Part shown: positions 27,279 to 38,905 of the stretch, in pieces | Layout of the letters: each line of letters opens with the position of its first letter | Numbering within the stretch: position 1 is the first letter of the stretch | Sequence record: PZ445515.1 | Origin: a phage | DNA: 64,000 nt | Direction: 5' to 3' (one strand) | Notes under the pieces: model-generated | Told to the model about the DNA's origin: nothing | Seen by the model: only the letters and a program-made list of their open reading frames with translations | Databases searched by the model: none | Made by a program: the position numbers and the translations under genes

Positions 27279-27670
27279 TAAAATTTCAGTGCAGAACACG
27301 GAGCTAGCAATTCGGAAGTGCTGACTCATGATAAGCTGCCTATGTACTTGCGAAGCGGTCGTGTCCAAGACTCGGACTCTTGCACTGAAAACAATCAAAC
27401 ATTCTAGCGTGGTTGATGGGGAAACCAGCTTGGCGAGGGCAGAAGCTCGTTCGATTCGAGTGAAAGAATGGTTCTCGTAAGTCCGCACAAGTGATAACAG
27501 GTTCGAGTCCTGTCTAGAATGACACTATAAAGTTTACTTATTATGTAGGTTCCGATAGATCGGCGGGTCTATTCTGGCACTTAAGAGAGGTCTCGCAAAC
27601 TTCTTTGTCAGCCGTGGGGTTGGTAGCCTCCAGGTGGCCTACACAATAAGTAAATTTATTAAAAATTCAT

Positions 27671-28287: not shown

Positions 28288-28363
28288 AGATCGCTAGCTC
28301 AATAGGTTTAGTAGCATCCGACTTTTAATCGGAAGGTTCTGGGTTCGAGTCCCAGGCGATCTA
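28288..28363 (+). tRNA. tRNA-Lys (anticodon TTT)
   Basis: Acceptor agatcgc/gcgatct, anticodon stem tccga/tcgga loop CTTTTAA, T-loop TTCGAGT, CCA encoded. Confidence 0.8.
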
Positions 28364-28384
28364 CCAATTTCAAGAAAAACGCAG

Positions 28385-28413
28385 TTGCTTAATGCTTAAT
28401 TTCTTGTTATAAT
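28385..28413 (+). promoter_or_regulatory. T5-type early promoter (drives non-coding block plus tRNAs)
   Basis: TTGCTT -35, 17 bp, TATAAT -10. Confidence 0.6.
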
Positions 28414-28430
28414 ATTTATATAAATTGATG

Positions 28431-28650
28431 AGGAGAAATCCTCATCATAGTTCACTAAGGTATTAGCTCGACCTAGGACTGGCTGCCAAAAAGCACGATC
28501 CCTACGATTCGGGAGAAGTTCTAGATTAGTCCACTAGATTCAGTGGCAACTGAATAGTGTATCGGGTTTGCGAGATGACGCGGTTCCTTCCGCTCGAAGC
28601 GAAGGTGCTGTAGTTACGCCGAGCTAATAGCCTTAGTAAACTAAATAATT
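28431..28650 (+). ncRNA. candidate structured non-coding RNA
   Basis: No ORF; hairpin gatgagga...tcctcatc at 5' end; 10-nt complementary pair tattagctcg/cgagctaata enclosing about 150 nt. Confidence 0.3.
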
Positions 28651-28651
28651 T

Positions 28652-28727
28652 GGGGAATGGGTCTGCATGGAGTGGACACCTCGCTTGCACCGAGGACATC
28701 AGAACGGTTCGATTCCGTTATTCTCCA
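28652..28727 (+). tRNA. tRNA-Ala (anticodon TGC)
   Basis: Acceptor ggggaat/attctcc, anticodon stem cctcg/cgagg loop CTTGCAC, T-loop TTCGATT, CCA encoded. Confidence 0.8.
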
Positions 28728-28735
28728 CCAAATAC

Positions 28736-29119: not shown

Positions 29120-29488
29120 CCAAATCCTGAAGTATGCCGGAATCGGTAGACGGGGCTGCCTAAAAGGTTTATAGGGAACATCCACTCCCTGCAACATACC
29201 TCATAAAGCGGCTGAGATAAATGGTCTATCTCGTGAAGGTTCAAGTCCTTCTGCTTCTTGATACACCAATGGCTCAAAGTGTAACGGTGCTATTTGATGC
29301 GCTTAGTAAGACTTCCCCGACATGCGTTCGGGAGTAAGCTGCTAAGACTAGAGTAGAAGAGTTTCTGAGAGCCGCCACAATTGAAAATTCGTACTCGTCT
29401 TGAGCTGCGTGCAATAGGAGATAACTTGATTAGTATTCTAGAACATGCTAATTGAGGAAGGTTTCGCTAACCCTGCGAGTTTTCAATT

Positions 29489-29562
29489 GTGGCTATATCA
29501 TAATTGGTTAATGATCCTGATTGTGAATCAGGCCTATGTGGATTCGAATTCCACTAGCCACC
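29489..29562 (+). tRNA. tRNA-His (anticodon GTG)
   Basis: Acceptor gtggcta/tagccac, anticodon stem cctga/tcagg loop TTGTGAA, T-loop TTCGAAT, CCA encoded. Confidence 0.8.
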
Positions 29563-29590
29563 CCAAATTAACTTAAATAGGAAATAAAAT

Positions 29591-29785
29591 ATGGCTGATT
29601 TCTGCAAACAATGCTCCATTGATATGTGGGGTAAAGATACTGGTGATCTTTCTGGTTTGATTACAGAAGCTGAGGTCAAAGAAGGTTATGGTGCAGTTGT
29701 GATTTGCGAAGGATGCGGCGTTATTCGTGTTGATCATGAAGGCAAACGTTTGGAAGAATCTGAGCCAACAACAATTTTTCCGTAG
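29591..29785 (+). CDS. small Cys-rich (zinc-ribbon-like) protein
   Basis: 64 aa; CKQC...CEGC pairs. Confidence 0.5.
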   Translation: MADFCKQCSIDMWGKDTGDLSGLITEAEVKEGYGAVVICEGCGVIRVDHEGKRLEESEPTTIFP

Positions 29786-29797
29786 AATAAAAATTAT

Positions 29798-29870
29798 TGG
29801 GATGTAGATCAATTGGCAGATCGTCGGCCTCTGACTCCGAAGGTTCCACGTTCGATCCGTGGCATCCCAG
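29798..29870 (+). tRNA. tRNA-Gln (anticodon CTG)
   Basis: Acceptor tgggatg/catccca, anticodon loop CTCTGAC, T-loop TTCGATC, CCA encoded. Confidence 0.8.
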
Positions 29871-29879
29871 CCAAATAAT

Positions 29880-29952
29880 TGGAGAGTAGTGTAACGGTTA
29901 GCACAACGGCCTTTGACTCCGTTAATGGTAGGTTCGATTCCTCCTTCTCCAG
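29880..29952 (+). tRNA. tRNA-Gln (anticodon TTG)
   Basis: Acceptor tggagag/ttctcca, anticodon loop CTTTGAC, T-loop TTCGATT, CCA encoded. Confidence 0.8.
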
Positions 29953-29962
29953 CCAAACAATA

Positions 29963-30036
29963 AGCGGTTAAGCACACGGGTTGTGCCGCAGGCCTTCCAA
30001 GCCTCGCTGAGTAGGGTTCGATTCCCTCTAGCCGCT
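29963..30036 (+). tRNA. tRNA-Gly (anticodon TCC)
   Basis: Acceptor agcggtt/tagccgc, anticodon loop CTTCCAA, T-loop TTCGATT, CCA encoded. Confidence 0.8.
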
Positions 30037-30055
30037 CCAACTTTAAGGAAACATT

Positions 30056-30307
30056 ATGCACGTTTTTGAGTTTCGTAATAAAAGTACCGAAAAACGAGTT
30101 ATTGTTATTGGAGAAACATACCGAGCATACGAACAAACTGACGGCTCTGTTATCCTGAATGATGAGAAAGGAGGTTTTAGCTTTTATCCAGAAGAACCTT
30201 ATGAAGAGTTTCGAAAACAATTTAACCTAGACTGGAGAAAGCATTTAAACACTGTTGCTTCATCTGTAGTATTGCCAACTACCAGTACTGTACTCTCTAA
30301 TGGCTGA
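30056..30307 (+). CDS. hypothetical protein
   Basis: 83 aa ORF. Confidence 0.5.
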   Translation: MHVFEFRNKSTEKRVIVIGETYRAYEQTDGSVILNDEKGGFSFYPEEPYEEFRKQFNLDWRKHLNTVASSVVLPTTSTVLSNG

Positions 30308-30464
30308 TAACCTAAAAGTCAAGATCGATAAACAAAAGAAACGTGTAGAAGTAGAGATTGGTGAAGAACGTGTAGCCTTCACCTTTGAATTTCTACAACA
30401 AATGGCAATGGCGGTTATGACTGATAAGTCTCCTGTTATTGAAAAAGAAATCCCGTTGAAATAA
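30300..30464 (+). CDS. hypothetical small protein
   Basis: 54 aa ORF, ATG overlaps upstream stop. Confidence 0.4.
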   Translation: MADNLKVKIDKQKKRVEVEIGEERVAFTFEFLQQMAMAVMTDKSPVIEKEIPLK

Positions 30465-30472
30465 CGGGTTCT

Positions 30473-30556
30473 GCTGGGTTGGCAGAATGGTTGAATGCAC
30501 CTGATTTGTAATCAGGAGGAGTAATCCCGTTACAGGTTCGAATCCTGTGCCCAGCA
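30473..30556 (+). tRNA. tRNA with anticodon TGT (Thr-type) and 15-nt variable arm
   Basis: Acceptor gctgggt/gcccagc, anticodon stem cctga/tcagg loop TTTGTAA, T-loop TTCGAAT, CCA encoded. Confidence 0.7.
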
Positions 30557-30573
30557 CCAACTTAAGGACTATT

Positions 30574-30741
30574 ATGTTTAAATTATTAGTAGTTATCTGG
30601 TATAGTCAATCAAATAGAGCGAATACCTCCCACGTTATAGACTTTAATACTAAAAATGAAGCTGAAAAAGCATATTCTAATTTAATAGAACGTAATAAAG
30701 AATCTCGTAGTATAGTTTATGAAGTGACTAAACTTTATTAA
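30574..30741 (+). CDS. hypothetical small membrane protein
   Basis: 55 aa from ATG 30574; hydrophobic N-terminus. Confidence 0.45.
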   Translation: MFKLLVVIWYSQSNRANTSHVIDFNTKNEAEKAYSNLIERNKESRSIVYEVTKLY

Positions 30742-30748
30742 AAATTCA

Positions 30749-30778
30749 TTTGCTTTCTCTCTTATTTATTGTTATAAT
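30749..30778 (+). promoter_or_regulatory. T5-type early promoter
   Basis: TTGCTT -35, 18 bp, TATAAT -10. Confidence 0.6.
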
Positions 30779-30808
30779 ATTTATATAAATTAATGAGAGG
30801 GAAGCCAA

Positions 30809-31102
30809 ATGAAACGTTATCTTTCTGTTGTGTTCCAAACTGGTGGTCAACGCTATACCTATGAATTTCCTGGCTCTTGGAAGATCAAAGAAGGTGATCA
30901 AGTAGTAGTGTTAACACCGCGTGAGGGTTTTAAGGTAGTAACGGTTAAGCAAGTATTTCCAAAAGAGCATGAACCAGCTAAAGGCATTCGCTATAAGATG
31001 ATTCATGGTGTAGTTCGTCAAGTACCACGAGCGGAAGTCGAAATCAAAGTAGATAAAGATGGTAAACTTAAATATACCTCTTGCTTAGACGAGTTGCTAT
31101 AA
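30809..31102 (+). CDS. hypothetical protein
   Basis: 97 aa ORF. Confidence 0.55.
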   Translation: MKRYLSVVFQTGGQRYTYEFPGSWKIKEGDQVVVLTPREGFKVVTVKQVFPKEHEPAKGIRYKMIHGVVRQVPRAEVEIKVDKDGKLKYTSCLDELL

Positions 31103-31308
31103 TGAGGATTACTTTTACAGAAAAGATCATGAGTAATGGTGTTATGATCATTACCGCATGGGATGGTAATCAGTGGTGTAGTGTTTCAGGTATTAAGCCT
31201 GAAGAACAAACACTAGAAAATATCTCAAAGATTAAGCGAAGAATGGCAGAACGTGCACGACTTCCAGGTGCACCTAGAAATGGCAAACGTTCTGCTGCAA
31301 AATGTTAA
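31081..31308 (+). CDS. hypothetical protein (start 31081 or in-frame ATG 31102)
   Basis: 75 aa ORF overlapping upstream gene end. Confidence 0.45.
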   Translation: MLRRVAIMRITFTEKIMSNGVMIITAWDGNQWCSVSGIKPEEQTLENISKIKRRMAERARLPGAPRNGKRSAAKC

Positions 31309-31309
31309 T

Positions 31310-31383
31310 GCTTCGGTAGCTTAGCGATCTAAAGCACTCGGCTGATAACCGAGAGATCGGGGGTTTAAATCCCTCCCGGAGTA
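31310..31383 (+). tRNA. tRNA-Ile (anticodon GAT)
   Basis: Acceptor gcttcgg/ccggagt, anticodon stem ctcgg/ccgag loop CTGATAA, atypical T-loop TTTAAAT, CCA encoded. Confidence 0.75.
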
Positions 31384-31400
31384 CCAAATTAAGGTTATGT

Positions 31401-31559
31401 ATGGAAGATATTGATAAACTTGCAAAAATATTTGCTGAACTTTCTGATATAGAAGTCTCAGAGAACTCTAGAATAGATATGTTTATTGACCAATATAGAG
31501 AAGGACTTATCAGTAAGAAAGATCTTCTAGATCTAACCTATAAAGAATTAACTAGTTAG
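31401..31559 (+). CDS. hypothetical small protein
   Basis: 52 aa ORF; TAG stop overlaps 5' end of next tRNA. Confidence 0.4.
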   Translation: MEDIDKLAKIFAELSDIEVSENSRIDMFIDQYREGLISKKDLLDLTYKELTS

Positions 31560-31626
31560 TTGGCAGAGTGGTTATGCACCTCCTTCATACGGAGCGACTA
31601 CAGTGGTTCAAATCCACTACTAACTA
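31554..31626 (+). tRNA. tRNA-Met (anticodon CAT)
   Basis: Acceptor agttagt/actaact, anticodon loop TTCATAC, T-loop TTCAAAT, CCA encoded. Confidence 0.75.
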
Positions 31627-31666
31627 CCATTAAAAGAGCTAGAGATAGCTAACTTTAGGAGCAGCT

Positions 31667-31861
31667 ATGTTAACAATTAAAATAATGTCAGCCAAGAATG
31701 GGGAACAGATTCATACAGGCAAAAGTGTAAGCTTTAATCCTAGAAATAAAAGATTGGCTATAGTTGGAGTAGACCAAGCCATCTTTTTAAAAGAAGATGA
31801 AGTAGCATATGTCATGAACCAAACTGGTAAGACAGTTTCCGTATACTATGGAAAAGTATAA
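31667..31861 (+). CDS. hypothetical protein
   Basis: 64 aa ORF. Confidence 0.5.
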   Translation: MLTIKIMSAKNGEQIHTGKSVSFNPRNKRLAIVGVDQAIFLKEDEVAYVMNQTGKTVSVYYGKV

Positions 31862-31903
31862 AGAATAAATAGCTGAGCCAAATTCTAACATCGGGGAGAT
31901 CTA

Positions 31904-32272
31904 ATGAAAGCATATCAAAATCTTAAATCTGGCGTAATTAACCTTGTTCATGAAAATCAGATTATTCAGCTATACTCCGACAACGGTGAACTTAAACAGA
32001 AAGTTCTAGTTGAAGATCTAGAAGGTATCACACCACAATTCGATCCCGAAGCCTTCCGTGAAGTCAAAGTGGAAGTCGCCCCTCAAATCGAAGGTGGTCA
32101 GCACCTAAATGTCAATGTGTTAAGCTGTGATCAGCTTTTGGATGCGCAGAAACATCCTGAAAAATATCCTCAGTTGACCATCCGTGTCTCTGGTTACGCT
32201 GTTCGATTTAACGCACTGACTCGTGAACAACAGAACGACGTTATTAGTCGTACATTTACTCAGGCGATGTAA
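31904..32272 (+). CDS. grcA: autonomous glycyl radical cofactor (GrcA/YfiD-like)
   Basis: 122 aa; [10 protein letters not shown]...[23 protein letters not shown] matches YfiD/PFL C-terminal glycyl-radical domain. Confidence 0.8.
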
Positions 32273-32353
32273 TGGGGTTTGGGTACGATTTCTCCGAACT
32301 ACGTGAGGTAGTCGAGCAAACTCCGTTTATCTCCCAAGTTTTAGGAGAAATGT

Positions 32354-32668
32354 GTGGATCGAGCATTAAGACGCCATCACCGGCAACGTGTGAAGAACAA
32401 CCGCAAGAAGTATTGGACAGTCTTTCCACATGAAGAAAGCCCTAAGCGGTTAGGTATTATCACTACTACTCCTTGCATCTGTTCTTGTTGGATGTGCGGG
32501 AACCCTCGCAAATATTATAAGAATAGTAAAGCAGGCATGAAAATTTCGGAGATTAGGAAAATGGAAGCAATGATTATGGGCATCTCAAATGATGAATTTG
32601 ATGGCTTTGTAGGATTCGGAGAAGGAATCAGCTCAGGCTATTCCGAAGATGAACGCCCCGATCTGTAA
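32354..32668 (+). CDS. hypothetical Cys-rich protein
   Basis: 104 aa, GTG start after AGGAG; CICSCWMC cluster. Confidence 0.45.
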   Translation: MDRALRRHHRQRVKNNRKKYWTVFPHEESPKRLGIITTTPCICSCWMCGNPRKYYKNSKAGMKISEIRKMEAMIMGISNDEFDGFVGFGEGISSGYSEDERPDL

Positions 32669-32677
32669 TTAATAACA

Positions 32678-32713
32678 AACCCCAGCTATTGAATAAGTAG
32701 TCTGGGGTTTTTC
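32678..32713 (+). terminator. rho-independent terminator
   Basis: Hairpin aaccccag...ctggggtt followed by TTTCTG. Confidence 0.65.
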
Positions 32714-32789
32714 TGTATAAAGGTACATAATATATGTATAATAAAATTCATCCACATTAGGTTAATTTAAAAGACTTAATGGAGGTAAT

Positions 32790-33137
32790 ATGAGCCGTAC
32801 TTATCGTAAACAATCTGGTGATCAGTGGTGGAAGTCTAAAGAACACTTCTCTCAAGAATATTCTTTCTTCAAAGAAAATGGCTACTGGATTCGTGTTATT
32901 TATGCCAAATCCTGGGACGACATCAAAAAAGAAATGAAGGAAGCAACCATTCGTAATGAGAAAAAGGATGGTTATAACTGGAATTCCATTAGTAAGAATG
33001 TTAAGTGGCACTCTAATAAAATGGTTCGTCAAGGGAATCGTCAAGAACTTCACCGCGTGATGAAAGATCCAGAAAATTACGACTATAATCGCGATCATGA
33101 CATGCGTAAGCGTGGGTTATGGTGGTGCTATGACTAA
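32790..33137 (+). CDS. hypothetical protein
   Basis: 115 aa ORF with RBS GGAGG. Confidence 0.55.
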   Translation: MSRTYRKQSGDQWWKSKEHFSQEYSFFKENGYWIRVIYAKSWDDIKKEMKEATIRNEKKDGYNWNSISKNVKWHSNKMVRQGNRQELHRVMKDPENYDYNRDHDMRKRGLWWCYD

Positions 33138-33154
33138 ATTCTGAAATAATTCAT

Positions 33155-33183
33155 TTGCTAAACCTCTCTTTTCTTGCTATAAT
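33155..33183 (+). promoter_or_regulatory. T5-type early promoter
   Basis: TTGCTA -35, 17 bp, TATAAT -10. Confidence 0.6.
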
Positions 33184-33213
33184 ATGTTTATAAATTGATG
33201 AGAGAGGTTTGAA

Positions 33214-33495
33214 ATGAAAACTCGTCTAGACTGTGCTGTTCATGTTCTTGAGCATGATGTTGCTGGAACCTGTATGTCTTACCACGAAGCAGGTCGTTTA
33301 ATTAAAGAACGTGTGGCAGATGTGTGCGGATTGAAGATTACTGCTGAGGAAGCTGATGATCTTTTAGGTCAAGCACTGGAGAAAACCGAAATGTTCCTCT
33401 GCGATTCTTGTTCTTGGTGGTGTGAAGCTCACGAACGTTCTTTCAATGATTATGATGTATGTCGTGATTGTAGTGGGGAGGATGAAGATGAATAA
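33214..33495 (+). CDS. hypothetical Cys-rich acidic protein
   Basis: 93 aa; CDSCSWWC...CRDC; acidic C-terminus EDEDE. Confidence 0.5.
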   Translation: MKTRLDCAVHVLEHDVAGTCMSYHEAGRLIKERVADVCGLKITAEEADDLLGQALEKTEMFLCDSCSWWCEAHERSFNDYDVCRDCSGEDEDE

Positions 33496-33787
33496 GTTTA
33501 TTATTGCACTGATGATCTCCGCAGTTAGTTTCGGTTCTCTGGCGTCTACCAAAGTTTCTATGAAAAATGGTAATGTTAAAGTCCAACAGAACGGCATTAT
33601 TACCGAGTATGGTAAAGTTCGTGATGTTAAGGAACGTAATGGTAAAGTAGAAATCTATACTAATAAAAACTTCTCTACTCCAGCCATTACTATTAGCAAA
33701 CGCGGTGAAATAACCACCCAACGTACTAATAGCTCCAGTTCTTTTACTTGTCGTTATGATTGCGACTTTGAAGGTGAAGATGAATAA
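33488..33787 (+). CDS. hypothetical secreted protein
   Basis: 99 aa from ATG 33488; N-terminal signal-peptide-like segment; C-terminus EGEDE. Confidence 0.5.
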   Translation: MNKFIIALMISAVSFGSLASTKVSMKNGNVKVQQNGIITEYGKVRDVKERNGKVEIYTNKNFSTPAITISKRGEITTQRTNSSSSFTCRYDCDFEGEDE

Positions 33788-34175
33788 TTTAGACCCTAGA
33801 ATTAAATTTGCAATTACAGAAATCCAAGATCAAATTGATGAGGATTTCACTGTTTGGTCAAGGTCTGGTAATGGAGAATATTGCCAGCTTTATAGTATGA
33901 AAATGGGTATCTCAATTGAGCTTAATATCAACCCTGAAGGTAGAGTAGAAGCCCAACCCATGTTCAGTGTTCCAGGCTTCTCTGGATTTGTTGCAGGCAT
34001 AAAATTGTGTCTACCAAATAACCATCTTCATCGAGTTATTTGTCAGCTAGAGACTATTAAGCATTTCTTGCCAGAAGATAACATTAATGACTACTACCAC
34101 GAAGTTGTAGCAGCTCATATGATGAAAGAATCTAAACGTCGGAGAGAAGAACGTGAAAAGACTAAACATCAATAG
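33780..34175 (+). CDS. hypothetical protein
   Basis: 131 aa from ATG 33780. Confidence 0.5.
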   Translation: MNNLDPRIKFAITEIQDQIDEDFTVWSRSGNGEYCQLYSMKMGISIELNINPEGRVEAQPMFSVPGFSGFVAGIKLCLPNNHLHRVICQLETIKHFLPEDNINDYYHEVVAAHMMKESKRRREEREKTKHQ

Positions 34176-34449
34176 CACAGTGCAGATTCCAGCAACTAAG
34201 GATGTTTTAACATTCCTACGGAGTGAAAACGCTCAGTTTTGGCATGATCATGTTGTAAAGAACGGTAGTACTCCAGATGTAGTTGCCTTTGCTAAAAAAC
34301 GTATCGAAGAATATAAAGATCCAGAGATTAAAGATGGGATGATTACTATGCAATTGTGGGTAGCCATGAATACGTTTGGACCTACTATGAGTCTAGGAGT
34401 TACTCCACTGTTTACTAATATTCTAATTAATGAAAAGGATCTGAAATGA
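34153..34449 (+). CDS. hypothetical protein
   Basis: 98 aa ORF. Confidence 0.5.
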   Translation: MKRLNINSTVQIPATKDVLTFLRSENAQFWHDHVVKNGSTPDVVAFAKKRIEEYKDPEIKDGMITMQLWVAMNTFGPTMSLGVTPLFTNILINEKDLK

Positions 34450-34730
34450 TTATCTCTCCATTTGCCCTTTGGTTCGTCATTGGATCTATAGTAGCTATTT
34501 ACAGCTTGGTTGATGATCTGTATATTTCTAAGAATAAAGATGTAATATTATACGTTATACATAAAACTCGACCGTTAGATCTGCCTCCTCTTGATGATAA
34601 AACATTACTCAGATGTGCTAGATCTATGATATTTATTGTGGATATTCTTCTAGGCCCAACATCTGTGTTTTTCTTTTATAGAAAGACTCGTAATATGAAA
34701 AAATTTAAAGCTGAAATGCAGAATACCTAA
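34446..34730 (+). CDS. hypothetical membrane protein
   Basis: 94 aa, two hydrophobic segments. Confidence 0.5.
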   Translation: MIISPFALWFVIGSIVAIYSLVDDLYISKNKDVILYVIHKTRPLDLPPLDDKTLLRCARSMIFIVDILLGPTSVFFFYRKTRNMKKFKAEMQNT

Positions 34731-34840
34731 AGAACTCGCGTAGGACCGAGTTGCGTCACCTGCAACTGTTACGGATAAGGGAGTCGTGCCCCTTAGTGCG
34801 GTAAGTGGTGAGGTGGCTGCTAGCCATAACTGGAGATAAT

Positions 34841-35185
34841 ATGACTATATTACTAATTCTTGTTACAACTTGGTTTTTAATCGGTGCTGGATATGCGATA
34901 GCTATTATTAGACATTTGGATGAACATTCTGCTGAATGGTTTGTTAAGTATCTACGTATTGATGATCAAGAACAGAAGTTTAAAGATGAAAAGCAGAAAA
35001 AAGCAGTAAATAATATGACAGCCAAAGAATGCTTGTTCTACATGCGTATTGTAGGGTTCTTTGGACTATTAGTTGCTGGCCCAATTGGTTCTACCATTGC
35101 TCCATATAAAGAAACAGTTGCCGACATCAAATTGTGGAGAAACGCAGGGGTACTACGCAAAGCTAGAGAAACTAATATTACATAA
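34841..35185 (+). CDS. hypothetical membrane protein
   Basis: 114 aa from ATG 34841 after GGAGA; TM segments. Confidence 0.5.
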   Translation: MTILLILVTTWFLIGAGYAIAIIRHLDEHSAEWFVKYLRIDDQEQKFKDEKQKKAVNNMTAKECLFYMRIVGFFGLLVAGPIGSTIAPYKETVADIKLWRNAGVLRKARETNIT

Positions 35186-35228
35186 GATTGATACTAAATC
35201 AACTTACTAGCAAAAGCAAATAATGACA

Positions 35229-35265
35229 AAGCCCAGCCTGCACTTTTGCGACTGGGCTATTTTTA
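35229..35265 (+). terminator. rho-independent terminator
   Basis: Hairpin agcccag...ctgggct followed by ATTTTTAT. Confidence 0.6.
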
Positions 35266-35278
35266 TAATAAAATTTTA

Positions 35279-35307
35279 GTTGCTTAGATGCCCAAACTTT
35301 TGTATAA
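35279..35307 (+). promoter_or_regulatory. T5-type early promoter
   Basis: TTGCTT -35, 17 bp, TATAAT -10. Confidence 0.6.
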
Positions 35308-35339
35308 TATGTTTATAGATTGAGGCAAGAGGATTAAAT

Positions 35340-36038
35340 ATGAGGATTATTTCTAAGTTCGCCGATGTGTATGACTTGCAGAACAGTTTGTTCGACCCAG
35401 ATCGTGTTTGGGAACGTAAAACTGAAGAGTTGCTGGTCAAAGTAACCGATGATGCAGAAAAGAACATTGTGCATACTCGCCAGGTATTTCGTGATGGTTC
35501 GCTATCTTTCCGTGGTGATTTCGAATATTTTGTAAACCCACTATTTGTTGCAGGTGAAGTTTACTGGTTACACGAGCTGTACTGCTGGCATCCAGCATTT
35601 AGCTTCAAAACGTTCAACCTCGACACTATGTTCGATAAAATGGAAGAGATGGGATTGCATGCTCGCTCTTATTTAATGGATAAGAGTCGCGGAGATGTTC
35701 GTGAAACAATGCGTGATTTGCTCGCGGAAGCAAAACCTAAAGCAGAACGTATCTTATCCGAACTGCGTGTACCGATTGCATATGTGAAAGGTATTAAAAA
35801 GAACGATAACGATGATGTTCGTAACTTCGTGATTCAGACTAACATTCGTTTCCATCAATCAGGTATTCCGTGGCAGGAAATTGAAAGTAACTTATACCGT
35901 TTACACCAAGTTCTCGAACAGTATATCTTTGGAGTACTAGGAACTGGTGAGCCTGATATGATTAAAGTATCAGATAAAGACAGGTTAGCAGCGCATGGAT
36001 TTGATACAAAAACTTCTTTCAGGAATATGGCACGGTAA
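35340..36038 (+). CDS. hypothetical protein
   Basis: 232 aa ORF. Confidence 0.6.
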   Translation: MRIISKFADVYDLQNSLFDPDRVWERKTEELLVKVTDDAEKNIVHTRQVFRDGSLSFRGDFEYFVNPLFVAGEVYWLHELYCWHPAFSFKTFNLDTMFDKMEEMGLHARSYLMDKSRGDVRETMRDLLAEAKPKAERILSELRVPIAYVKGIKKNDNDDVRNFVIQTNIRFHQSGIPWQEIESNLYRLHQVLEQYIFGVLGTGEPDMIKVSDKDRLAAHGFDTKTSFRNMAR

Positions 36039-36444
36039 GTGGTATATCCTGGGAGCAGGTCTAGCGATAGGCATCGGATTCGGTGCTTATCACTTAGTAG
36101 ATAAAGTGGAGACTTTAGCGGGAGATCTTGCAGTAGCTACTAAAAAGATCTCTTCTCTAGAGACTTCCCTTAATAAGGTGAAAGCTGAAAGTGAACTTCG
36201 TGAGACTAGAATGAATCAGTATTTCACGATGAATAATATTTCTCAAGCAGATCTAGACAAAAAGATTAAGCAGCTAGATAAAGCTCTTAGTCGTCAAGAT
36301 GTTATCGCTGCAAAACCTGGATTGGTAACATTGATTGCTAAAAAGCAGAATAAAGAGTTCGAGGAAAGATTAGCGTGTTTAACTGGAAACTTGGAGTACT
36401 GCTCGCAGCCACAATCACAATCACAGGCTGTGCAGAAGAAATAA
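35995..36444 (+). CDS. putative i-spanin-like protein (N-terminal TM plus coiled coil)
   Basis: 149 aa; single N-terminal TM helix, periplasmic coiled-coil region; next gene is an overlapping lipoprotein. Confidence 0.4.
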   Translation: MDLIQKLLSGIWHGKWYILGAGLAIGIGFGAYHLVDKVETLAGDLAVATKKISSLETSLNKVKAESELRETRMNQYFTMNNISQADLDKKIKQLDKALSRQDVIAAKPGLVTLIAKKQNKEFEERLACLTGNLEYCSQPQSQSQAVQKK

Positions 36445-36728
36445 AACCAGAGCCATCTCATGAGTTAAAGCAAGCTCATGTAGACTGGCCTAAAGGACTT
36501 CAACCTTGTAGCTTTGACTTTAAGTTTGAAAAGAAATTAGCTACAAATGGAGAAGATGGCGTAGTAGTTGTTATACCATACAAAGATTGGAATGCAAAAG
36601 CAAAATGTGAGGAAGCAGTTTACTCTTACATTTCACGACTGACTGGTATGGTCTGCTTCTATCGTCAAGATTTACAAGAAAAACGTTGCTTAGTTTACTA
36701 TCCACCAATTAACAATAGGAAAGATTAA
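36375..36728 (+). CDS. putative o-spanin-like outer-membrane lipoprotein
   Basis: 117 aa, GTG start; signal peptide with lipobox ITGC; 5' end overlaps upstream gene in another frame. Confidence 0.4.
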   Translation: MFNWKLGVLLAATITITGCAEEIKPEPSHELKQAHVDWPKGLQPCSFDFKFEKKLATNGEDGVVVVIPYKDWNAKAKCEEAVYSYISRLTGMVCFYRQDLQEKRCLVYYPPINNRKD

Positions 36729-37480
36729 TGTCAGTATTAGTCGGTTTACATGGTGAAGCTGGTTCGGGAAAAGATACCGTTGCAAAATTAATTATCGATT
36801 GGTGTAATGACACGTATCCAACGTGTTTATCTCGTCGTTATAGTTTTGCTAAGCCCGTTTATGAACTTGCATCCGTAATCCTCGGTGTAACTCCAGAGTT
36901 TCTAGGAGAGCGCAGGGGAAAAGAGATTGACCAATGGTTTACGGTCACACAATCTCAGTTGGAACGAGCCAGGGATGTGTGGTTTAAGTACGGTATCGAT
37001 AAGTTTGAAGACTTCTCGTACGTTTGGCCTATTTTTGAGGAAAAATATCTTAATCCTCAACAACTTATATCAGAGAATAAAGAAGACGGTCTTTATAGCT
37101 TATTTATTTCTCCGAGAAAAATGTTACAGCTCGTAGGGACAGAGCTAGGAAGGCAGCTGGTGCATGAACGCATTTGGCTCATAATTCTGGAGCAATCCAT
37201 CGCTAAAGACGACCCAGATGTCGCCGTAATAACAGATGTTAGATTCCCCAATGAAGGAGAGTTACTCAGAGAAACAAACCATTTAGATATGGATTCTTTG
37301 ATAGTAAATGTAGTACCCGCTGAGCAGAAGTTCACTATTAAATCAGATCATCCATCTGAAAGTGGTATTCCTGCAAAATATATTACTCACGAATTAGTTA
37401 ATAAATTCGATGGTATCAATAACCTTAAACTAGAAGTTTATAACTTCTGTGACTTAGAGCTAGAACCACTAGTTGGATAA
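36728..37480 (+). CDS. dnk: deoxynucleoside monophosphate kinase
   Basis: 250 aa; P-loop GEAGSGKDT; size and position as in T5-like phages. Confidence 0.7.
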   Translation: MSVLVGLHGEAGSGKDTVAKLIIDWCNDTYPTCLSRRYSFAKPVYELASVILGVTPEFLGERRGKEIDQWFTVTQSQLERARDVWFKYGIDKFEDFSYVWPIFEEKYLNPQQLISENKEDGLYSLFISPRKMLQLVGTELGRQLVHERIWLIILEQSIAKDDPDVAVITDVRFPNEGELLRETNHLDMDSLIVNVVPAEQKFTIKSDHPSESGIPAKYITHELVNKFDGINNLKLEVYNFCDLELEPLVG

Positions 37481-37492
37481 TCAAGGATCACT

Positions 37493-38092
37493 ATGACTAA
37501 TAAAAAAGAAGAAAAGACTAACCTGTTTCACTCCATTCGCCAATCTAATGAGTATACCTTTTTCTTTGATGAAGAATTAGGCCCGCCGGATGAATACCGT
37601 GATTTATCAATGGTACTTATGCAAGCAAATGAGGACGACGAAATTAATCTGATGATTAATGGCCCTGGTGGTTATGTTGATACTGCTGCACAGTTATCTA
37701 ACTTAATTGCTAATTGCCGTGGAACAGTTATAGGACATCTGGTTGGTCCTAGTGCTTCTGCTTACTGCACAATTTTCCTATCCTGTCATGGGTGGGTAGT
37801 ACATCCACATGCTACGCTAATGGGACACACGTTCTCTGGCGGATTCTGTGAGAAGGGTCAAGAAATCAAGAAAGCCTATGAATCTTACAACAAGTTCGTA
37901 GAAGATATGATGCTAGATGTCTACTATCCGTTTTTCTCAATAGACGAAATCGATGAGATGGTAAAAGACAACAAAAATATCTATCTAGATAGCAAAGAAA
38001 TCCATAAGCGTATTGAAATCTTGGCAAAATATCGATCTGAGCAGTATAATAAAGCCCAGTTACCTCAATCAGAGGAGCATAAAGAAGAGTAA
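37493..38092 (+). CDS. ClpP-like serine protease
   Basis: 199 aa; INGPGGYV, GPSASA (Ser) and VVHPH (His) resemble ClpP catalytic motifs. Confidence 0.6.
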   Translation: MTNKKEEKTNLFHSIRQSNEYTFFFDEELGPPDEYRDLSMVLMQANEDDEINLMINGPGGYVDTAAQLSNLIANCRGTVIGHLVGPSASAYCTIFLSCHGWVVHPHATLMGHTFSGGFCEKGQEIKKAYESYNKFVEDMMLDVYYPFFSIDEIDEMVKDNKNIYLDSKEIHKRIEILAKYRSEQYNKAQLPQSEEHKEE

Positions 38093-38100
38093 GTAGTTTT

Positions 38101-38133
38101 AAGCCAGGGTTTAACGACCCTGGCTTTTCTTTT
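38101..38133 (+). terminator. rho-independent terminator
   Basis: Hairpin aagccagggt...accctggctt followed by TTCTTTTAT. Confidence 0.7.
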
Positions 38134-38196
38134 ATCTAAAATTCTTCTTGACAACGACAAAATTTTGTGCTCCAAAGAAAATCTTTAAAAACACAT

Positions 38197-38224
38197 TGTA
38201 ATTTTCCTCCAAAATTAGTATAAT
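38197..38224 (+). promoter_or_regulatory. sigma70-type promoter upstream of lysis genes
   Basis: TTGTAA -35, 17 bp, TATAAT -10; also TTGACA at 38148. Confidence 0.4.
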
Positions 38225-38248
38225 GGTACTGGTTAGAGGAGGTTACAA

Positions 38249-38905
38249 TTGGAAAAGTTCTTACAATTATTAACGGTACTGCTCCAAGAAGCGAAAGATC
38301 CAGCATCGCTTCTTAAACGTCTGCTAACTATCTTAGTTGCTGTCATTATTTTCTTATTTGTTAGTAATACTAGCGAGGTGATGTCATTCTTAAAGACTTT
38401 CTCCACGTCTGCGGTTCTACAGGATGTTCAAACTCAAAGGATAGATAACTTTCCTAATGTAGCTAGAGAAAAGAGCATGGTACTCTTTTCTCAAACGGGT
38501 GCGGATGCTGTTTTTGTAGTCAAGTATAAACCCGATGCCATTAATGATTATTCTAACATTATTGCATGGGAAAGCAATGCGCAATTAGATAGGGCTGACT
38601 TGGCCGATAAAGCAGTAAATAAAACGTCTGAGCTATACAGACGTCACTTAGAGGGCTTTAACTACGCATCGGATTTAAGTGTAAGAGTAAATAAATATAC
38701 GGGGTTAAATATACCTGCGTTTAAGAACGTTACTTTTAATTACATATACACTTGTCCATATTTCAATCTAAACAATATCTATGCTGGATATATTGGTATT
38801 GCTTGGAAAGATAATCCTGTAGATGCAGCCGATTCTGAGAAATTTAAGGAATATTTAACAAAGCTCTGTTCCCCACAACAGAGATCTTTAGGTAGATCAA
38901 TATGA
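38249..38905 (+). CDS. holin (T4 T-type, single TM with large periplasmic domain)
   Basis: 218 aa; one N-terminal TM helix; immediately upstream of endolysin with 4-nt overlap; TTG start after GAGGAGG. Confidence 0.7.
   Translation: MEKFLQLLTVLLQEAKDPASLLKRLLTILVAVIIFLFVSNTSEVMSFLKTFSTSAVLQDVQTQRIDNFPNVAREKSMVLFSQTGADAVFVVKYKPDAINDYSNIIAWESNAQLDRADLADKAVNKTSELYRRHLEGFNYASDLSVRVNKYTGLNIPAFKNVTFNYIYTCPYFNLNNIYAGYIGIAWKDNPVDAADSEKFKEYLTKLCSPQQRSLGRSI

What the first reader, a model, noticed from the sequence alone, without database searches (positions are those of the whole stretch)
28431..28650. Structured non-coding block directly behind a strong promoter and ahead of tRNA-Ala
About 220 nt with no ORF starts with hairpin gatgaggagaaatcctcatc and is bracketed by perfectly complementary 10-mers (tattagctcg at about 28461, cgagctaata at about 28620), with several internal hairpins. 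T5-family phages are reported to make small stable RNAs from the tRNA region; this is a candidate, co-transcribed with tRNAs and presumably released by RNase P/E.
Basis: partly seen in the sequence, partly recalled or inferred. Interest (0 to 1): 0.5.

Follow-up and report, generated by a model that had tools for sequence, protein, structure and literature searches.

The report
T5 stable RNA gene "RNA2H"
The block is the gene for a stable non-coding RNA that GenBank's T5 record already calls RNA2H; comparison of related phages shows a conserved, knotted fold shared across T5-like phages, but its function is still unknown.

Summary
Positions 28420-28651 hold no gene. They fold far better than shuffled sequence (z = -6.6) and lie between a T5-type early promoter and tRNA-Ala.

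The element is not new as an object. GenBank's phage T5 st0 and DT57C records annotate the homologous stretch as misc_RNA "RNA2H, stable RNA with unknown functions", directly after "promoter P13b". That stretch corresponds to window 28461-28632 and is 168/172 identical.

New here:
- Covariation across 46 close variants supports the fold. So do distant homologues that my covariance model found in Klebsiella (Sugarlandvirus) and Aeromonas (Shenzhenvirus) phages.
- The fold has a 22-bp terminal helix with one conserved bulge, a core with two loop-to-strand pseudoknots, and two swappable peripheral hairpins.
- It matches no Rfam family, tRNA or host sequence.
- The annotated ends fall at the conserved bulge and leave a 2-nt 3' overhang. 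This points to RNase III rather than RNase E. RNase P sets the outer 3' boundary.
- T5 mutants deleted for this region are viable, so the RNA is accessory.

Its function is unknown. The most likely reading is a free-standing RNA that binds a protein or ligand.

The parts
28385..28413 (+). Early sigma-70 promoter, homologue of T5 'promoter P13b': -35 TTGCTT at 28385-28390, 17-nt spacer, extended -10 TGtTATAAT at 28405-28413. The inferred transcription start is about A28420.
   Evidence: The sequence is. T5 st0 annotates 'promoter P13b' at the homologous position. It is almost invariant in 11 phages. The same promoter type sits directly before the distant homologues. The tool's consensus scan did not call it. 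The start site is inferred from spacing and from my recollection of T5 promoter PN25.
28426..28447 (+). 5' hairpin of 9 bp with a GAAA loop, at about +7 to +28 of the transcript. It buries a GAGGAG Shine-Dalgarno-like run. It is specific to the Tequintavirus/Epseptimavirus lineage and is not part of the conserved RNA.
   Evidence: It is absent in the Klebsiella and Aeromonas homologues, where the terminal helix starts at the transcription start. In Spc35-type phages it carries an insert of about 100 nt.
28448..28470 (+). P1, 5' strand of the 22-bp terminal helix.
   Evidence: Pairs with 28620-28643. 98.9% of cells are paired in 46 sequences. There are several double compensatory changes in the Klebsiella and Aeromonas homologues.
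28620..28643 (+). P1, 3' strand. It carries the conserved single-purine bulge (A28629 or G28630), 13 bp from the open end of the helix.
   Evidence: MFE folds of the two distant homologues show the same layout of 13 bp, a bulge, then 10-11 bp.
28461..28632 (+). Mature 'RNA2H' as annotated in GenBank (172 nt). The 5' end U28461 pairs with G28630 or A28629. The 3' end C28632 leaves a 2-nt 3' overhang.
   Evidence: Coordinates were transferred from AY692264 31811-31982 and KM979354 27116-27287. Identity to the window is 168/172.
28471..28474 (+). P2 5' strand (ACCU). It pairs with GGGU at 28564-28567.
   Evidence: 99.5% paired. The Klebsiella homologue has AUAC/GUAU, which is two double compensatory changes.
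28476..28480 (+). Pseudoknot 1, strand side (GGACU). It pairs with AGUCC at 28528-28532 in the P3 loop.
   Evidence: The pairs are GGACU/AGUCC (T5 group), GAGUC/GACUC and GAGCC/GGCUC (Klebsiella) and GACGG/UCGUC (Aeromonas), always starting 1 nt after P2. Cognate pairs give 5/5 (Aeromonas 4/5) Watson-Crick matches; pairs between the three host groups give 1-2/5.
28484..28488 (+). Pseudoknot 2, strand side (UGCCA). It pairs with (U)GGCA at 28544-28548 in the P4 loop and is followed by a conserved A-rich run at 28488-28492.
   Evidence: One compensatory change (G-C to A-U) in the Klebsiella phages, and the same register in all clades. Support is weaker than for pseudoknot 1. Two outlier sequences break it.
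28493..28496 (+). P2b 5' strand (GCAC). It pairs with GUGU at 28557-28560.
   Evidence: 100% paired. Klebsiella has ACAC/GUGU and Aeromonas UAC/GUA.
28499..28514 (+). Variable hairpin 1. It is short here (CCC/GGG stem). Many Epseptimaviruses carry hairpins about 25 nt longer with UGC/GCA stems.
   Evidence: Three pairs with changes on both sides.
28520..28538 (+). P3 hairpin (UCUAG/CUAGA, 9-nt loop). The loop carries the partner of pseudoknot 1.
   Evidence: Two double compensatory changes (UCUGA/UCAGA) in L005 and L008. These contradict the MFE and RNAalifold pairing of 28473-28480 with 28517-28524.
28539..28554 (+). P4 hairpin (UUCAG/CUGAA, loop UGGCAA). The loop carries the partner of pseudoknot 2.
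   Evidence: The stem sequences are completely different in the Klebsiella (ACGC/GCGU) and Aeromonas (ACUCU/AGAGU) phages.
28570..28619 (+). Variable hairpin 2, a long irregular arm branching at the P1/P2 junction. It comes in three or more sequence types and is shorter in the Aeromonas phages.
   Evidence: Eight pairs with changes on both sides.
28644..28651 (+). 8-nt spacer before tRNA-Ala. RNase P cleavage at 28651/28652 sets the outer 3' boundary of the leader.
   Evidence: tRNA-Ala lies at 28652-28730. The spacer is 2 nt in the Klebsiella phage and 3 nt in the Aeromonas phage. The RNase P step is inferred from general tRNA biology.

Best explanation
This is the gene for the phage T5 stable RNA 'RNA2H'. 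It is a non-coding RNA of about 170-230 nt and forms the first element of an early tRNA operon.

Biogenesis:
- Host RNA polymerase starts at about 28420 from a strong T5-type early promoter.
- RNase P, cutting at the 5' end of tRNA-Ala, frees the whole leader.
- The two ends of the conserved part (28448-28643) pair into a 22-bp helix, P1. It has one conserved purine bulge 13 bp from its open end.
- A staggered double-strand cut at that bulge, most likely by host RNase III, gives the annotated 172-nt species (28461-28632).

Fold: above P1 sits a compact core. Two short helices (P2, P2b) enclose a 19-nt strand, and that strand pairs with the loops of two adjacent hairpins (P3, P4), giving two pseudoknots. 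Two peripheral hairpins are free to vary and are exchanged between phages.

Status of each step:
- Shown here: homology to the annotated RNA, the fold, its strand, and its conservation across three groups of T5-like phages.
- Inferred: promoter use, the RNase P and RNase III steps, and accumulation of the RNA.
- Function: unknown. My best guess, at about 0.4 within this explanation, is a free-standing abundant RNA whose invariant core and bulged helix bind a specific host or phage factor. It is an accessory function, because T5 lacking the region grows on laboratory E. coli.
For: Identity and context:
- T5 st0 and DT57C annotate the homologous 172 nt as RNA2H, after promoter P13b and before tRNA-Ala. 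The window is 168/172 identical.
- DT57C labels RNA2H 'stable RNA' but labels RNA3 'putative stable RNA'. This suggests RNA2H rests on observation.

Structure:
- z = -6.56 for the window sequence, and -3.7 and -4.2 for the distant homologues.
- In 46 distinct sequences 98.1% of cells are paired and 15 pairs change on both sides. 0 of 500 shuffles reach the observed percentage paired or covariation score. Slid controls give only 29-41% paired.
- Covariance model hits: 92.7 bits (E = 1e-28) in a Klebsiella Sugarlandvirus and 42.8 bits (E = 1.5e-12) in an Aeromonas Shenzhenvirus.
- These homologues carry compensatory changes in P1, P2, P2b, P3, P4 and pseudoknot 1, and one in pseudoknot 2.

Strand: conserved G-U pairs, and 239 bits forward against 33 bits reverse.

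Layout: promoter, then the RNA, then a tRNA within 2-8 nt, in all three clades.

Processing: the annotated ends give a 2-nt 3' overhang exactly at the bulge that is conserved in all clades.

Other points:
- Dispensable: T5 deletions 29191-32442 and 30661-38625 are viable (PMC11464382).
- One copy per genome, in 425 phage records.
Against: - No expression data could be read. The papers behind the GenBank annotation are not held, so the annotated ends could be predictions.
- The RNase III step rests only on those ends and on helix geometry.
- The core is nearly invariant within the T5 group. The pseudoknots therefore rest on three or four deep lineages, not many independent events. Pseudoknot 2 has a single compensatory change and is broken in phiR2-01.
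- In about 8 Epseptimavirus genomes a protein gene with a ribosome-binding site follows instead of a tRNA. This fits a cis-acting leader as well as a free RNA.
- Nothing identifies a binding partner.
Confidence: 0.72

Rival explanations
1. It is a cis-acting leader of the tRNA operon, not a free RNA. The structure would act on its own transcript. Possible roles are a ligand- or tRNA-sensing switch, an element that makes RNA polymerase resistant to termination, or a processing and stability module for the downstream genes.
For: - It always lies directly behind the promoter at the 5' end of an operon, in all three clades.
- In some Epseptimaviruses it is followed at once by a ribosome-binding site and a gene.
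- A pseudoknotted core with an A-rich strand is typical of small aptamers (my own knowledge).
- The pseudoknot 2 strand reads RCCA and its partner loop UGGY. That is the pairing T-box leaders and RNase P RNA use for tRNA 3' ends (my own knowledge).
Against: - There is no expression platform. No terminator-like hairpin followed by a T run lies on the + strand between 28420 and 28651.
- Where a gene follows, its ribosome-binding site lies outside P1.
- No riboswitch or leader family of Rfam matches, even at E up to 10.
- The record calls it a stable RNA.
- The downstream gene is interchangeable: at least four tRNA-Ala alleles, another tRNA, or a protein gene.
Confidence: 0.17
2. It is a self-cleaving ribozyme of a class not yet described. 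Its double-pseudoknot core would cut the precursor and release the tRNA transcript.
For: Its architecture is a closing helix formed by the two ends plus two loop-to-strand tertiary pairings and a handful of invariant unpaired nucleotides. This resembles twister-type and HDV-type ribozymes in outline (the comparison rests on my own knowledge).
Against: - No match to any ribozyme family in Rfam.
- The annotated ends lie inside a regular helix with a 2-nt stagger. That geometry is protein RNase III, not ribozyme.
- RNase P already provides the 3' cut.
Confidence: 0.04
3. It is a DNA-level element, such as a replication origin, a recombination or homing site, or a cruciform, rather than an RNA.
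For: - The core is conserved at the sequence level.
- The two variable hairpins occur in different combinations in different phages, which shows recombination inside the element.
- Homing endonuclease genes are common nearby.
Against: - Conserved G-U pairs are valid only on the + strand RNA.
- The model scores 239 bits on the + strand and 33 on the - strand.
- Pseudoknot covariation has no DNA explanation.
- Deletion mutants replicate.
Confidence: 0.03
4. It is spacer sequence with chance structure, or a mis-annotated small protein gene. Several GenBank records place 'hypothetical protein' over it.
For: Some records carry CDS features across the homologous region, for example VAC35 UEP19064 and UEP19065 and one in AhP_Mru1.
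Against: - 0 of 200 shuffles fold as well.
- Compensatory changes occur throughout.
- No ORF is conserved, and the replacements of variable hairpin 2 and the indels in variable hairpin 1 would disrupt any reading frame.
Confidence: 0.01

Closest known systems
Phage T5 'RNA2H' (misc_RNA in GenBank AY692264 and KM979354)
   Same: It is the same gene: 168/172 identical, with the same promoter upstream and tRNA-Ala downstream.
   Different: - The window's phage carries a different tRNA-Ala allele downstream and lacks T5's tRNA-Val upstream.
- The records give no structure or function.
- The fold and the Klebsiella and Aeromonas homologues described here are not in those records or in Rfam.
Other stable RNAs of phage tRNA clusters (T5 RNAI, RNAIII, RNAIV, rna2; T4 species 1 and 2 RNAs)
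   Same: They are small stable RNAs of unknown function, encoded among phage tRNA genes, co-transcribed with them and cut out of the precursor (for T5; my own knowledge for T4).
   Different: - There is no sequence or model similarity to the others in this window.
- T5 rna2 looks like a tRNA with an acceptor stem and T arm. RNA2H has no tRNA features.
Adenovirus VA RNA I
   Same: In outline it is the same kind of molecule: a very abundant viral RNA of about 160-200 nt. Its two ends form a long terminal helix, a pseudoknotted central domain sits above that helix, and an RNase III-family enzyme trims the terminal helix (PMC6599070, listed, and my own knowledge).
   Different: - There is no homology.
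- It comes from a different domain of life, and bacteria have no PKR.
- The resemblance is an analogy recalled from the literature, not a test.
Bacterial and phage Y RNAs (YrlA)
   Same: The two ends pair into a helix with a conserved bulge, which in Y RNAs is the Ro-binding site. Both are often encoded next to tRNAs in phages (my own knowledge).
   Different: - No Rfam match.
- No tRNA-like domain.
- E. coli K-12 lacks Ro (my own knowledge).
phi29 packaging RNA (pRNA)
   Same: It has a terminal helix formed by the two ends, plus two loops used for base-paired tertiary contacts (my own knowledge).
   Different: - No Rfam match.
- The loop partners here lie within the same molecule.
- The RNA is dispensable for T5 growth.

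Membership tests
T5 RNA2H (annotated stable RNA) | Sequence homology to the annotated locus | tested here: met
   168/172 identical to AY692264 31811-31982. 96% identical to DT57C across the 285-nt query (H11).
T5 RNA2H (annotated stable RNA) | Same neighbourhood: promoter P13b upstream and tRNA-Ala downstream on the same strand | tested here: met
T5 RNA2H (annotated stable RNA) | A discrete stable RNA species in infected cells | not testable with these tools
   It rests on the wording of the GenBank records. The primary papers are not held.
tRNA or tRNA-like RNA | Cloverleaf, or an acceptor stem plus T arm | tested here: not met
   ARAGORN finds nothing between 28367 and 28651. There is no tRNA-clan match in Rfam even at E up to 10.
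Any curated RNA family (Rfam 15: riboswitches, ribozymes, Y RNA, pRNA, 6S, leaders) | A covariance-model match | tested here: not met
   Nothing within 28448-28651 at E up to 10. The weak matches lie upstream of that; two reach a short way into it, and all are far below gathering scores. The variants in six other phages also give nothing.
RNase III processing site | About two turns (20 bp or more) of double-stranded RNA | tested here: met
   P1 is 22 bp in the T5 group, 23 bp in Klebsiella phages and 24 bp in Aeromonas phages.
RNase III processing site | Product ends staggered with a 2-nt 3' overhang | tested here: met
   The annotated ends 28461 and 28632 lie opposite each other in P1 and leave CC-3' unpaired. 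This holds only if the annotated ends were measured.
RNase III processing site | Cleavage depends on the rnc gene, or occurs with purified enzyme | not testable with these tools
   This needs an experiment.
Riboswitch or attenuator leader | An expression platform: a terminator, or a sequestered ribosome-binding site, that alternates with the sensor fold | tested here: not met
   There is no + strand terminator-like site in 28420-28651. The downstream ribosome-binding sites lie outside P1.
Structured RNA under selection | Compensatory base changes in the proposed helices | tested here: met
   15 pairs change on both sides within the T5 group. Further compensatory changes occur in P1, P2, P2b, P4 and pseudoknot 1 in the distant homologues.

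The most novel reading that the evidence does not exclude
RNA2H and its relatives may be a new functional class of phage RNA. One possibility is an abundant decoy or sponge, working like adenovirus VA RNA. Its bulged 22-bp helix and double-pseudoknot core would capture a host factor such as RNase III or an RNA-sensing or tRNA-targeting defence protein. The other possibility is a small-molecule aptamer or ribozyme. It sits in the T5 region that already holds anti-defence tRNAs (tRNA-Lys against PARIS, tRNA-Tyr against retron Eco7). Its peripheral hairpins are swapped between phages while the core stays fixed.
Probability: 0.25. Interest if true: 0.8.

Novelty: already known. Interest (0 to 1): 0.48.

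Why it matters
T5's stable RNAs were already being cloned in 1982 (reference seen), and I found no assigned function. They are missing from Rfam, and many recent genome records overwrite RNA2H with spurious 'hypothetical proteins'.

This analysis gives RNA2H a covariation-supported architecture, precise boundaries and a family that spans at least Tequintavirus, Epseptimavirus, Sugarlandvirus and Shenzhenvirus. That is about 510 of 50,697 phage records.

The old question of what these RNAs do therefore becomes directly testable:
- There are defined mutations to make: the bulge, the two pseudoknots and the A-rich strand.
- There is a defined processing prediction: RNase III.
- There is a natural set of swapped peripheral arms to compare.

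The practical gain is a candidate new Rfam family and better annotation of T5-like therapeutic phages.

Tried and rejected
- **Rfam.** I searched the 14-kb tRNA region, then the 289-nt block at E up to 10, then six variant loci. There was no meaningful match.
- **Host similarity.** BLAST of the RNA against 5,426 E. coli genomes found nothing, so mimicry or antisense at BLAST level is not supported.
- **MFE and RNAalifold structure.** The pairing of 28473-28480 with 28517-28524, and a small hairpin at 28562-28573, are rejected. L005 and L008 break these pairings and compensate in the P3 hairpin instead, and position 28571 covaries with 28618.
- **Paralogues.** T5 'rna2' is not related, despite the name RNA2H. 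It is tRNA-like, and the model finds no second copy in the window.
- **Wider searches.**
  - A metagenome scan with a 21-nt core pattern gave only near-identical T5-type copies plus chance hits.
The model kept three loci, all of Klebsiella or Aeromonas type.
  - Nothing was found in Vibrio phage pVp-1's tRNA region.
- **Literature.** Searches for RNA2H, T5 stable RNAs and T5 transcriptomes found no paper describing this RNA's structure or function. The T5 genome paper and the deletion-mutant paper are not held.
- **Klebsiella and Aeromonas BLAST hits to the first 70 nt of the query.** These are only the shared promoter type. At first I read them as absence of the RNA. The covariance model later showed that the RNA is present elsewhere in those genomes.

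Full report
**1. The observation**

The window is the early tRNA region of a T5-like phage. It is 100% identical to Escherichia phages T5_ev212 and EC148 over 28367-28651. The block lies between tRNA-Lys (28288-28366) and tRNA-Ala (28652-28730), all on the + strand.

- The hairpin (28426-28447, 9 bp) and the complementary 10-mers (28461-28470 and 28620-28629) are exactly as described. They belong to a longer interrupted helix, 28448-28470 with 28620-28643.
- No credible ORF exists.
- The RNA folds at -87.7 kcal/mol against -58.2 +/- 4.5 for dinucleotide shuffles, z = -6.56.
- The promoter is TTGCTT, 17 nt, TGtTATAAT. The simple scan missed it because of its weak -35 hexamer. T5 annotates the homologous sequence as 'promoter P13b'. 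It is almost invariant in 11 phages.

**2. It is already annotated**

- GenBank AY692264 (T5 st0) carries misc_RNA 'RNA2H' at 31811-31982, immediately after 'promoter P13b' and before tRNA-Ala.
Its RNA3 is only 'putative'.
- Transferred to the window, RNA2H is 28461-28632, with 168/172 identical bases.
- I found no paper in the held library that describes its structure or function. Rfam 15 has no family for it.

**3. Structure within the T5 group**

The core is found in 425 phage records, one copy each, essentially all Tequintavirus or Epseptimavirus. From GenBank, IMG/VR and metagenome loci I collected 46 distinct sequences.

They show an invariant core and two hairpins that are replaced wholesale. 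The replacements occur in several combinations, which shows recombination within the gene.

The RNAalifold consensus follows the single-sequence MFE fold. Two phages (L005, L008) break two of its helices and compensate perfectly in a hairpin, UCUAG/CUAGA to UCUGA/UCAGA.

My revised structure is:
- P1, 22 bp
- P2
- P2b
- variable hairpin 1
- P3
- P4
- variable hairpin 2
- two loop-to-strand pseudoknots

It pairs 98.1% of 3,126 cells. Fifteen pairs change on both sides. 0 of 500 column shuffles reach the observed percentage paired or covariation score. Structures slid by 1-3 columns give 29-41% paired.

Within this group P1, P2, P2b, P4 and the pseudoknots hardly vary, so they stay untested at this stage. 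The few single changes in P2, P2b and pseudoknot 1 are all wobble-compatible.

**4. Distant homologues settle the core**

A covariance model built from this alignment finds no second copy in the window. It does find clear hits in two other genera of Demerecviridae:
- Klebsiella phage VAC35 (Sugarlandvirus): 92.7 bits, E = 1e-28.
- Aeromonas phage AhP_Mru1 (Shenzhenvirus): 42.8 bits, E = 1.5e-12.

BLAST with those sequences shows 79 Klebsiella-phage and 7 Aeromonas-phage records. Three more loci came from IMG/VR. Independent MFE folds of both give the same order of helices, with z = -3.7 and -4.2.

The alignment shows compensatory change almost everywhere:

| Element | T5 group | Klebsiella phages | Aeromonas phages |
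|---|---|---|---|
| P1 (upper part) | AUUAGCUCG/CGAGCUAAU | AUUAAUCUG/CGGAUUAAU | differs again |
| P2 | ACCU/GGGU | AUAC/GUAU | not well aligned by the model |
| P2b | GCAC/GUGU | ACAC/GUGU | UAC/GUA |
| P3, P4 stems | see parts list | entirely different sequences | entirely different sequences |
| Pseudoknot 1 | GGACU/AGUCC | GAGUC/GACUC, GAGCC/GGCUC, or the wobble intermediate GAGUC/GGCUC | GACGG/UCGUC |
| Pseudoknot 2 | UGCC(A)/(U)GGCA | ACCA/UGGU | UGCCA/UGGCG |

- Pseudoknot 1 always starts one nucleotide after P2. Cognate strand-loop pairs give 5/5 (Aeromonas 4/5) Watson-Crick matches, against 1-2/5 for pairs between the three host groups.
- Pseudoknot 2 keeps its register, with one G-C to A-U exchange. 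It is plausible but less secure. phiR2-01 and one metagenomic sequence break it.
- The model found nothing in the tRNA region of Vibrio phage pVp-1. The family may therefore not cover all Demerecviridae, although the model was trained on the T5 group only.

**5. Strand and layout**

- Conserved G-U pairs and the score asymmetry of 239 against 33 bits put the RNA on the + strand with the tRNAs.
- In the Klebsiella phage a TTGCTA-17-TATAAT promoter places the start at the first base of P1. tRNA-Ala begins 2 nt after the last base of P1.
- In the Aeromonas phage an extended -10 promoter and a tRNA 3 nt downstream frame the RNA in the same way.
- The conserved unit is therefore: promoter, then an RNA whose two ends pair, then a tRNA.
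- The T5-group 5' hairpin is a lineage-specific addition. It covers a GAGGAG run that looks like a ribosome-binding site and may instead be part of the promoter's downstream region (inference).
- Within the T5 group the downstream partner varies. There are at least four tRNA-Ala alleles, one other tRNA, and a protein gene with its own ribosome-binding site in about eight genomes.

**6. Processing**

RNase P at the tRNA 5' end is the standard way such a leader is released (established tRNA biology).

The annotated ends point to a further cut:
- U28461 pairs with G28630 or A28629.
- The 3' end C28632 pairs with G28459.
- The product therefore has a 2-nt 3' overhang, which is the RNase III geometry.

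The cut lies exactly at a single purine bulge on the 3' strand. In all three clades this bulge sits 13 bp from the open end and 9-11 bp from the junction. The flanking AAGG/CCUU pairs are the only part of P1 conserved in sequence across clades.

A helix held at 22-24 bp with a fixed bulge is what a double-strand-specific processing or binding site would look like. I put RNase III processing at about 0.55. It depends on the annotated ends being measured rather than predicted.

**7. Function**

- T5 deletion mutants 29191-32442 and 30661-38625 both remove RNA2H (31811-31982 in the T5 st0 numbering, which should agree with theirs up to this point). Both are viable. In the PARIS study the rescuing activity of this region mapped to tRNA-Lys (PMC11464382). 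RNA2H is therefore accessory on laboratory E. coli.
- There is no similarity to E. coli sequence, no terminator or sequestered ribosome-binding site, and no known family.
- Three things fit a free-standing RNA that binds a specific partner best: strict conservation of the core and the bulged helix, free exchange of the peripheral arms, and a very strong promoter.
- A cis-acting leader role is the main rival.
- A decoy role like that of adenovirus VA RNA, or an anti-defence role suggested by the neighbouring anti-defence tRNAs, is an attractive analogy. It is untested.

**8. Verdict**

- The element is already known as an annotated T5 stable RNA.
- Its fold, its boundaries, its likely RNase III site and its family across T5-like phages of Escherichia, Salmonella, Klebsiella and Aeromonas appear to be undescribed.
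- Its function is an open and now testable question.

Noticed in passing
L010:360-470 (Salmonella phage Spc35); also L009 and L017. Corresponds to window 28431-28442.: In Spc35-type phages the loop of the 5' hairpin is replaced by an insert of about 100 nt. It folds only weakly (z = -1.6). It contains a 15-codon ORF (MTSTLAELPKKRSSG) with AGGUG 3 nt upstream of the ATG. The ORF is identical in two phages that differ elsewhere.
   Followed up: partly
window 27400-27524: This is the homologue of T5 'rna2'. It has an 8-bp acceptor-like stem (CATTCTAG/CTAGAATG) and a clear T arm (GGTTCGAGTCC), with a large insert where the D and anticodon arms should be. Neither ARAGORN nor Rfam calls it. It is unrelated to RNA2H despite the name.
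   Followed up: partly
window 28652-28730, and the downstream flanks of L001-L126: The tRNA-Ala(UGC) after the RNA is 79 nt long. ARAGORN calls it, but it is absent from the Rfam tRNA matches for the window. Across phages at least four quite different tRNA-Ala alleles follow an almost identical RNA2H. The tRNA is therefore exchanged much faster than the RNA.
   Followed up: no
window 28484-28488 and 28544-28548; the same positions in L127 and L128: The strand side of pseudoknot 2 reads RCCA (GCCA, ACCA, GCCA) and the P4 loop reads UGGY. The R:Y pair covaries. This is the pairing that T-box leaders and RNase P RNA use to hold a tRNA 3' end (my own knowledge). The loop might therefore also be able to bind tRNA ends in trans. 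This is a lead only.
   Followed up: no
L007:590-868, L117:582-845, L009:700-990, L015, L025: In about eight Epseptimavirus genomes the RNA is followed not by a tRNA but by a small protein gene. Its ribosome-binding site starts within 3 nt of the end of P1 (AACUAGAAGGAAUAUCUAUG). GenBank gives these genes implausible names such as 'Rho-associated coiled-coil kinase 2'.
   Followed up: no
L127:18260-18556 (VAC35), L128:14201-14477 (AhP_Mru1), several Salmonella phage records: Automatic annotation places 'hypothetical protein' genes over the RNA homologues, some on the opposite strand. In VAC35 the tRNA-Ala just downstream is not annotated at all.
   Followed up: partly
L236:297-512 (Klebsiella phage vB_Kpn_3, partial genome): This is a chimeric copy. 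Its 5' half is Klebsiella type and its 3' half is Epseptimavirus type. As a result P1 has three mismatches and P2 has one. It is either a recent recombinant that has lost function or an assembly artefact.
   Followed up: no
window 28385-28434; L011 and L012: The P13b-type promoter, with its first 15 or so transcribed bases (ATAAATTGATGAGGAG), recurs in Klebsiella and Aeromonas Demerecviridae in front of ordinary protein genes. The early promoter, including its initial transcribed region, therefore behaves as a portable cassette in this family.
   Followed up: partly
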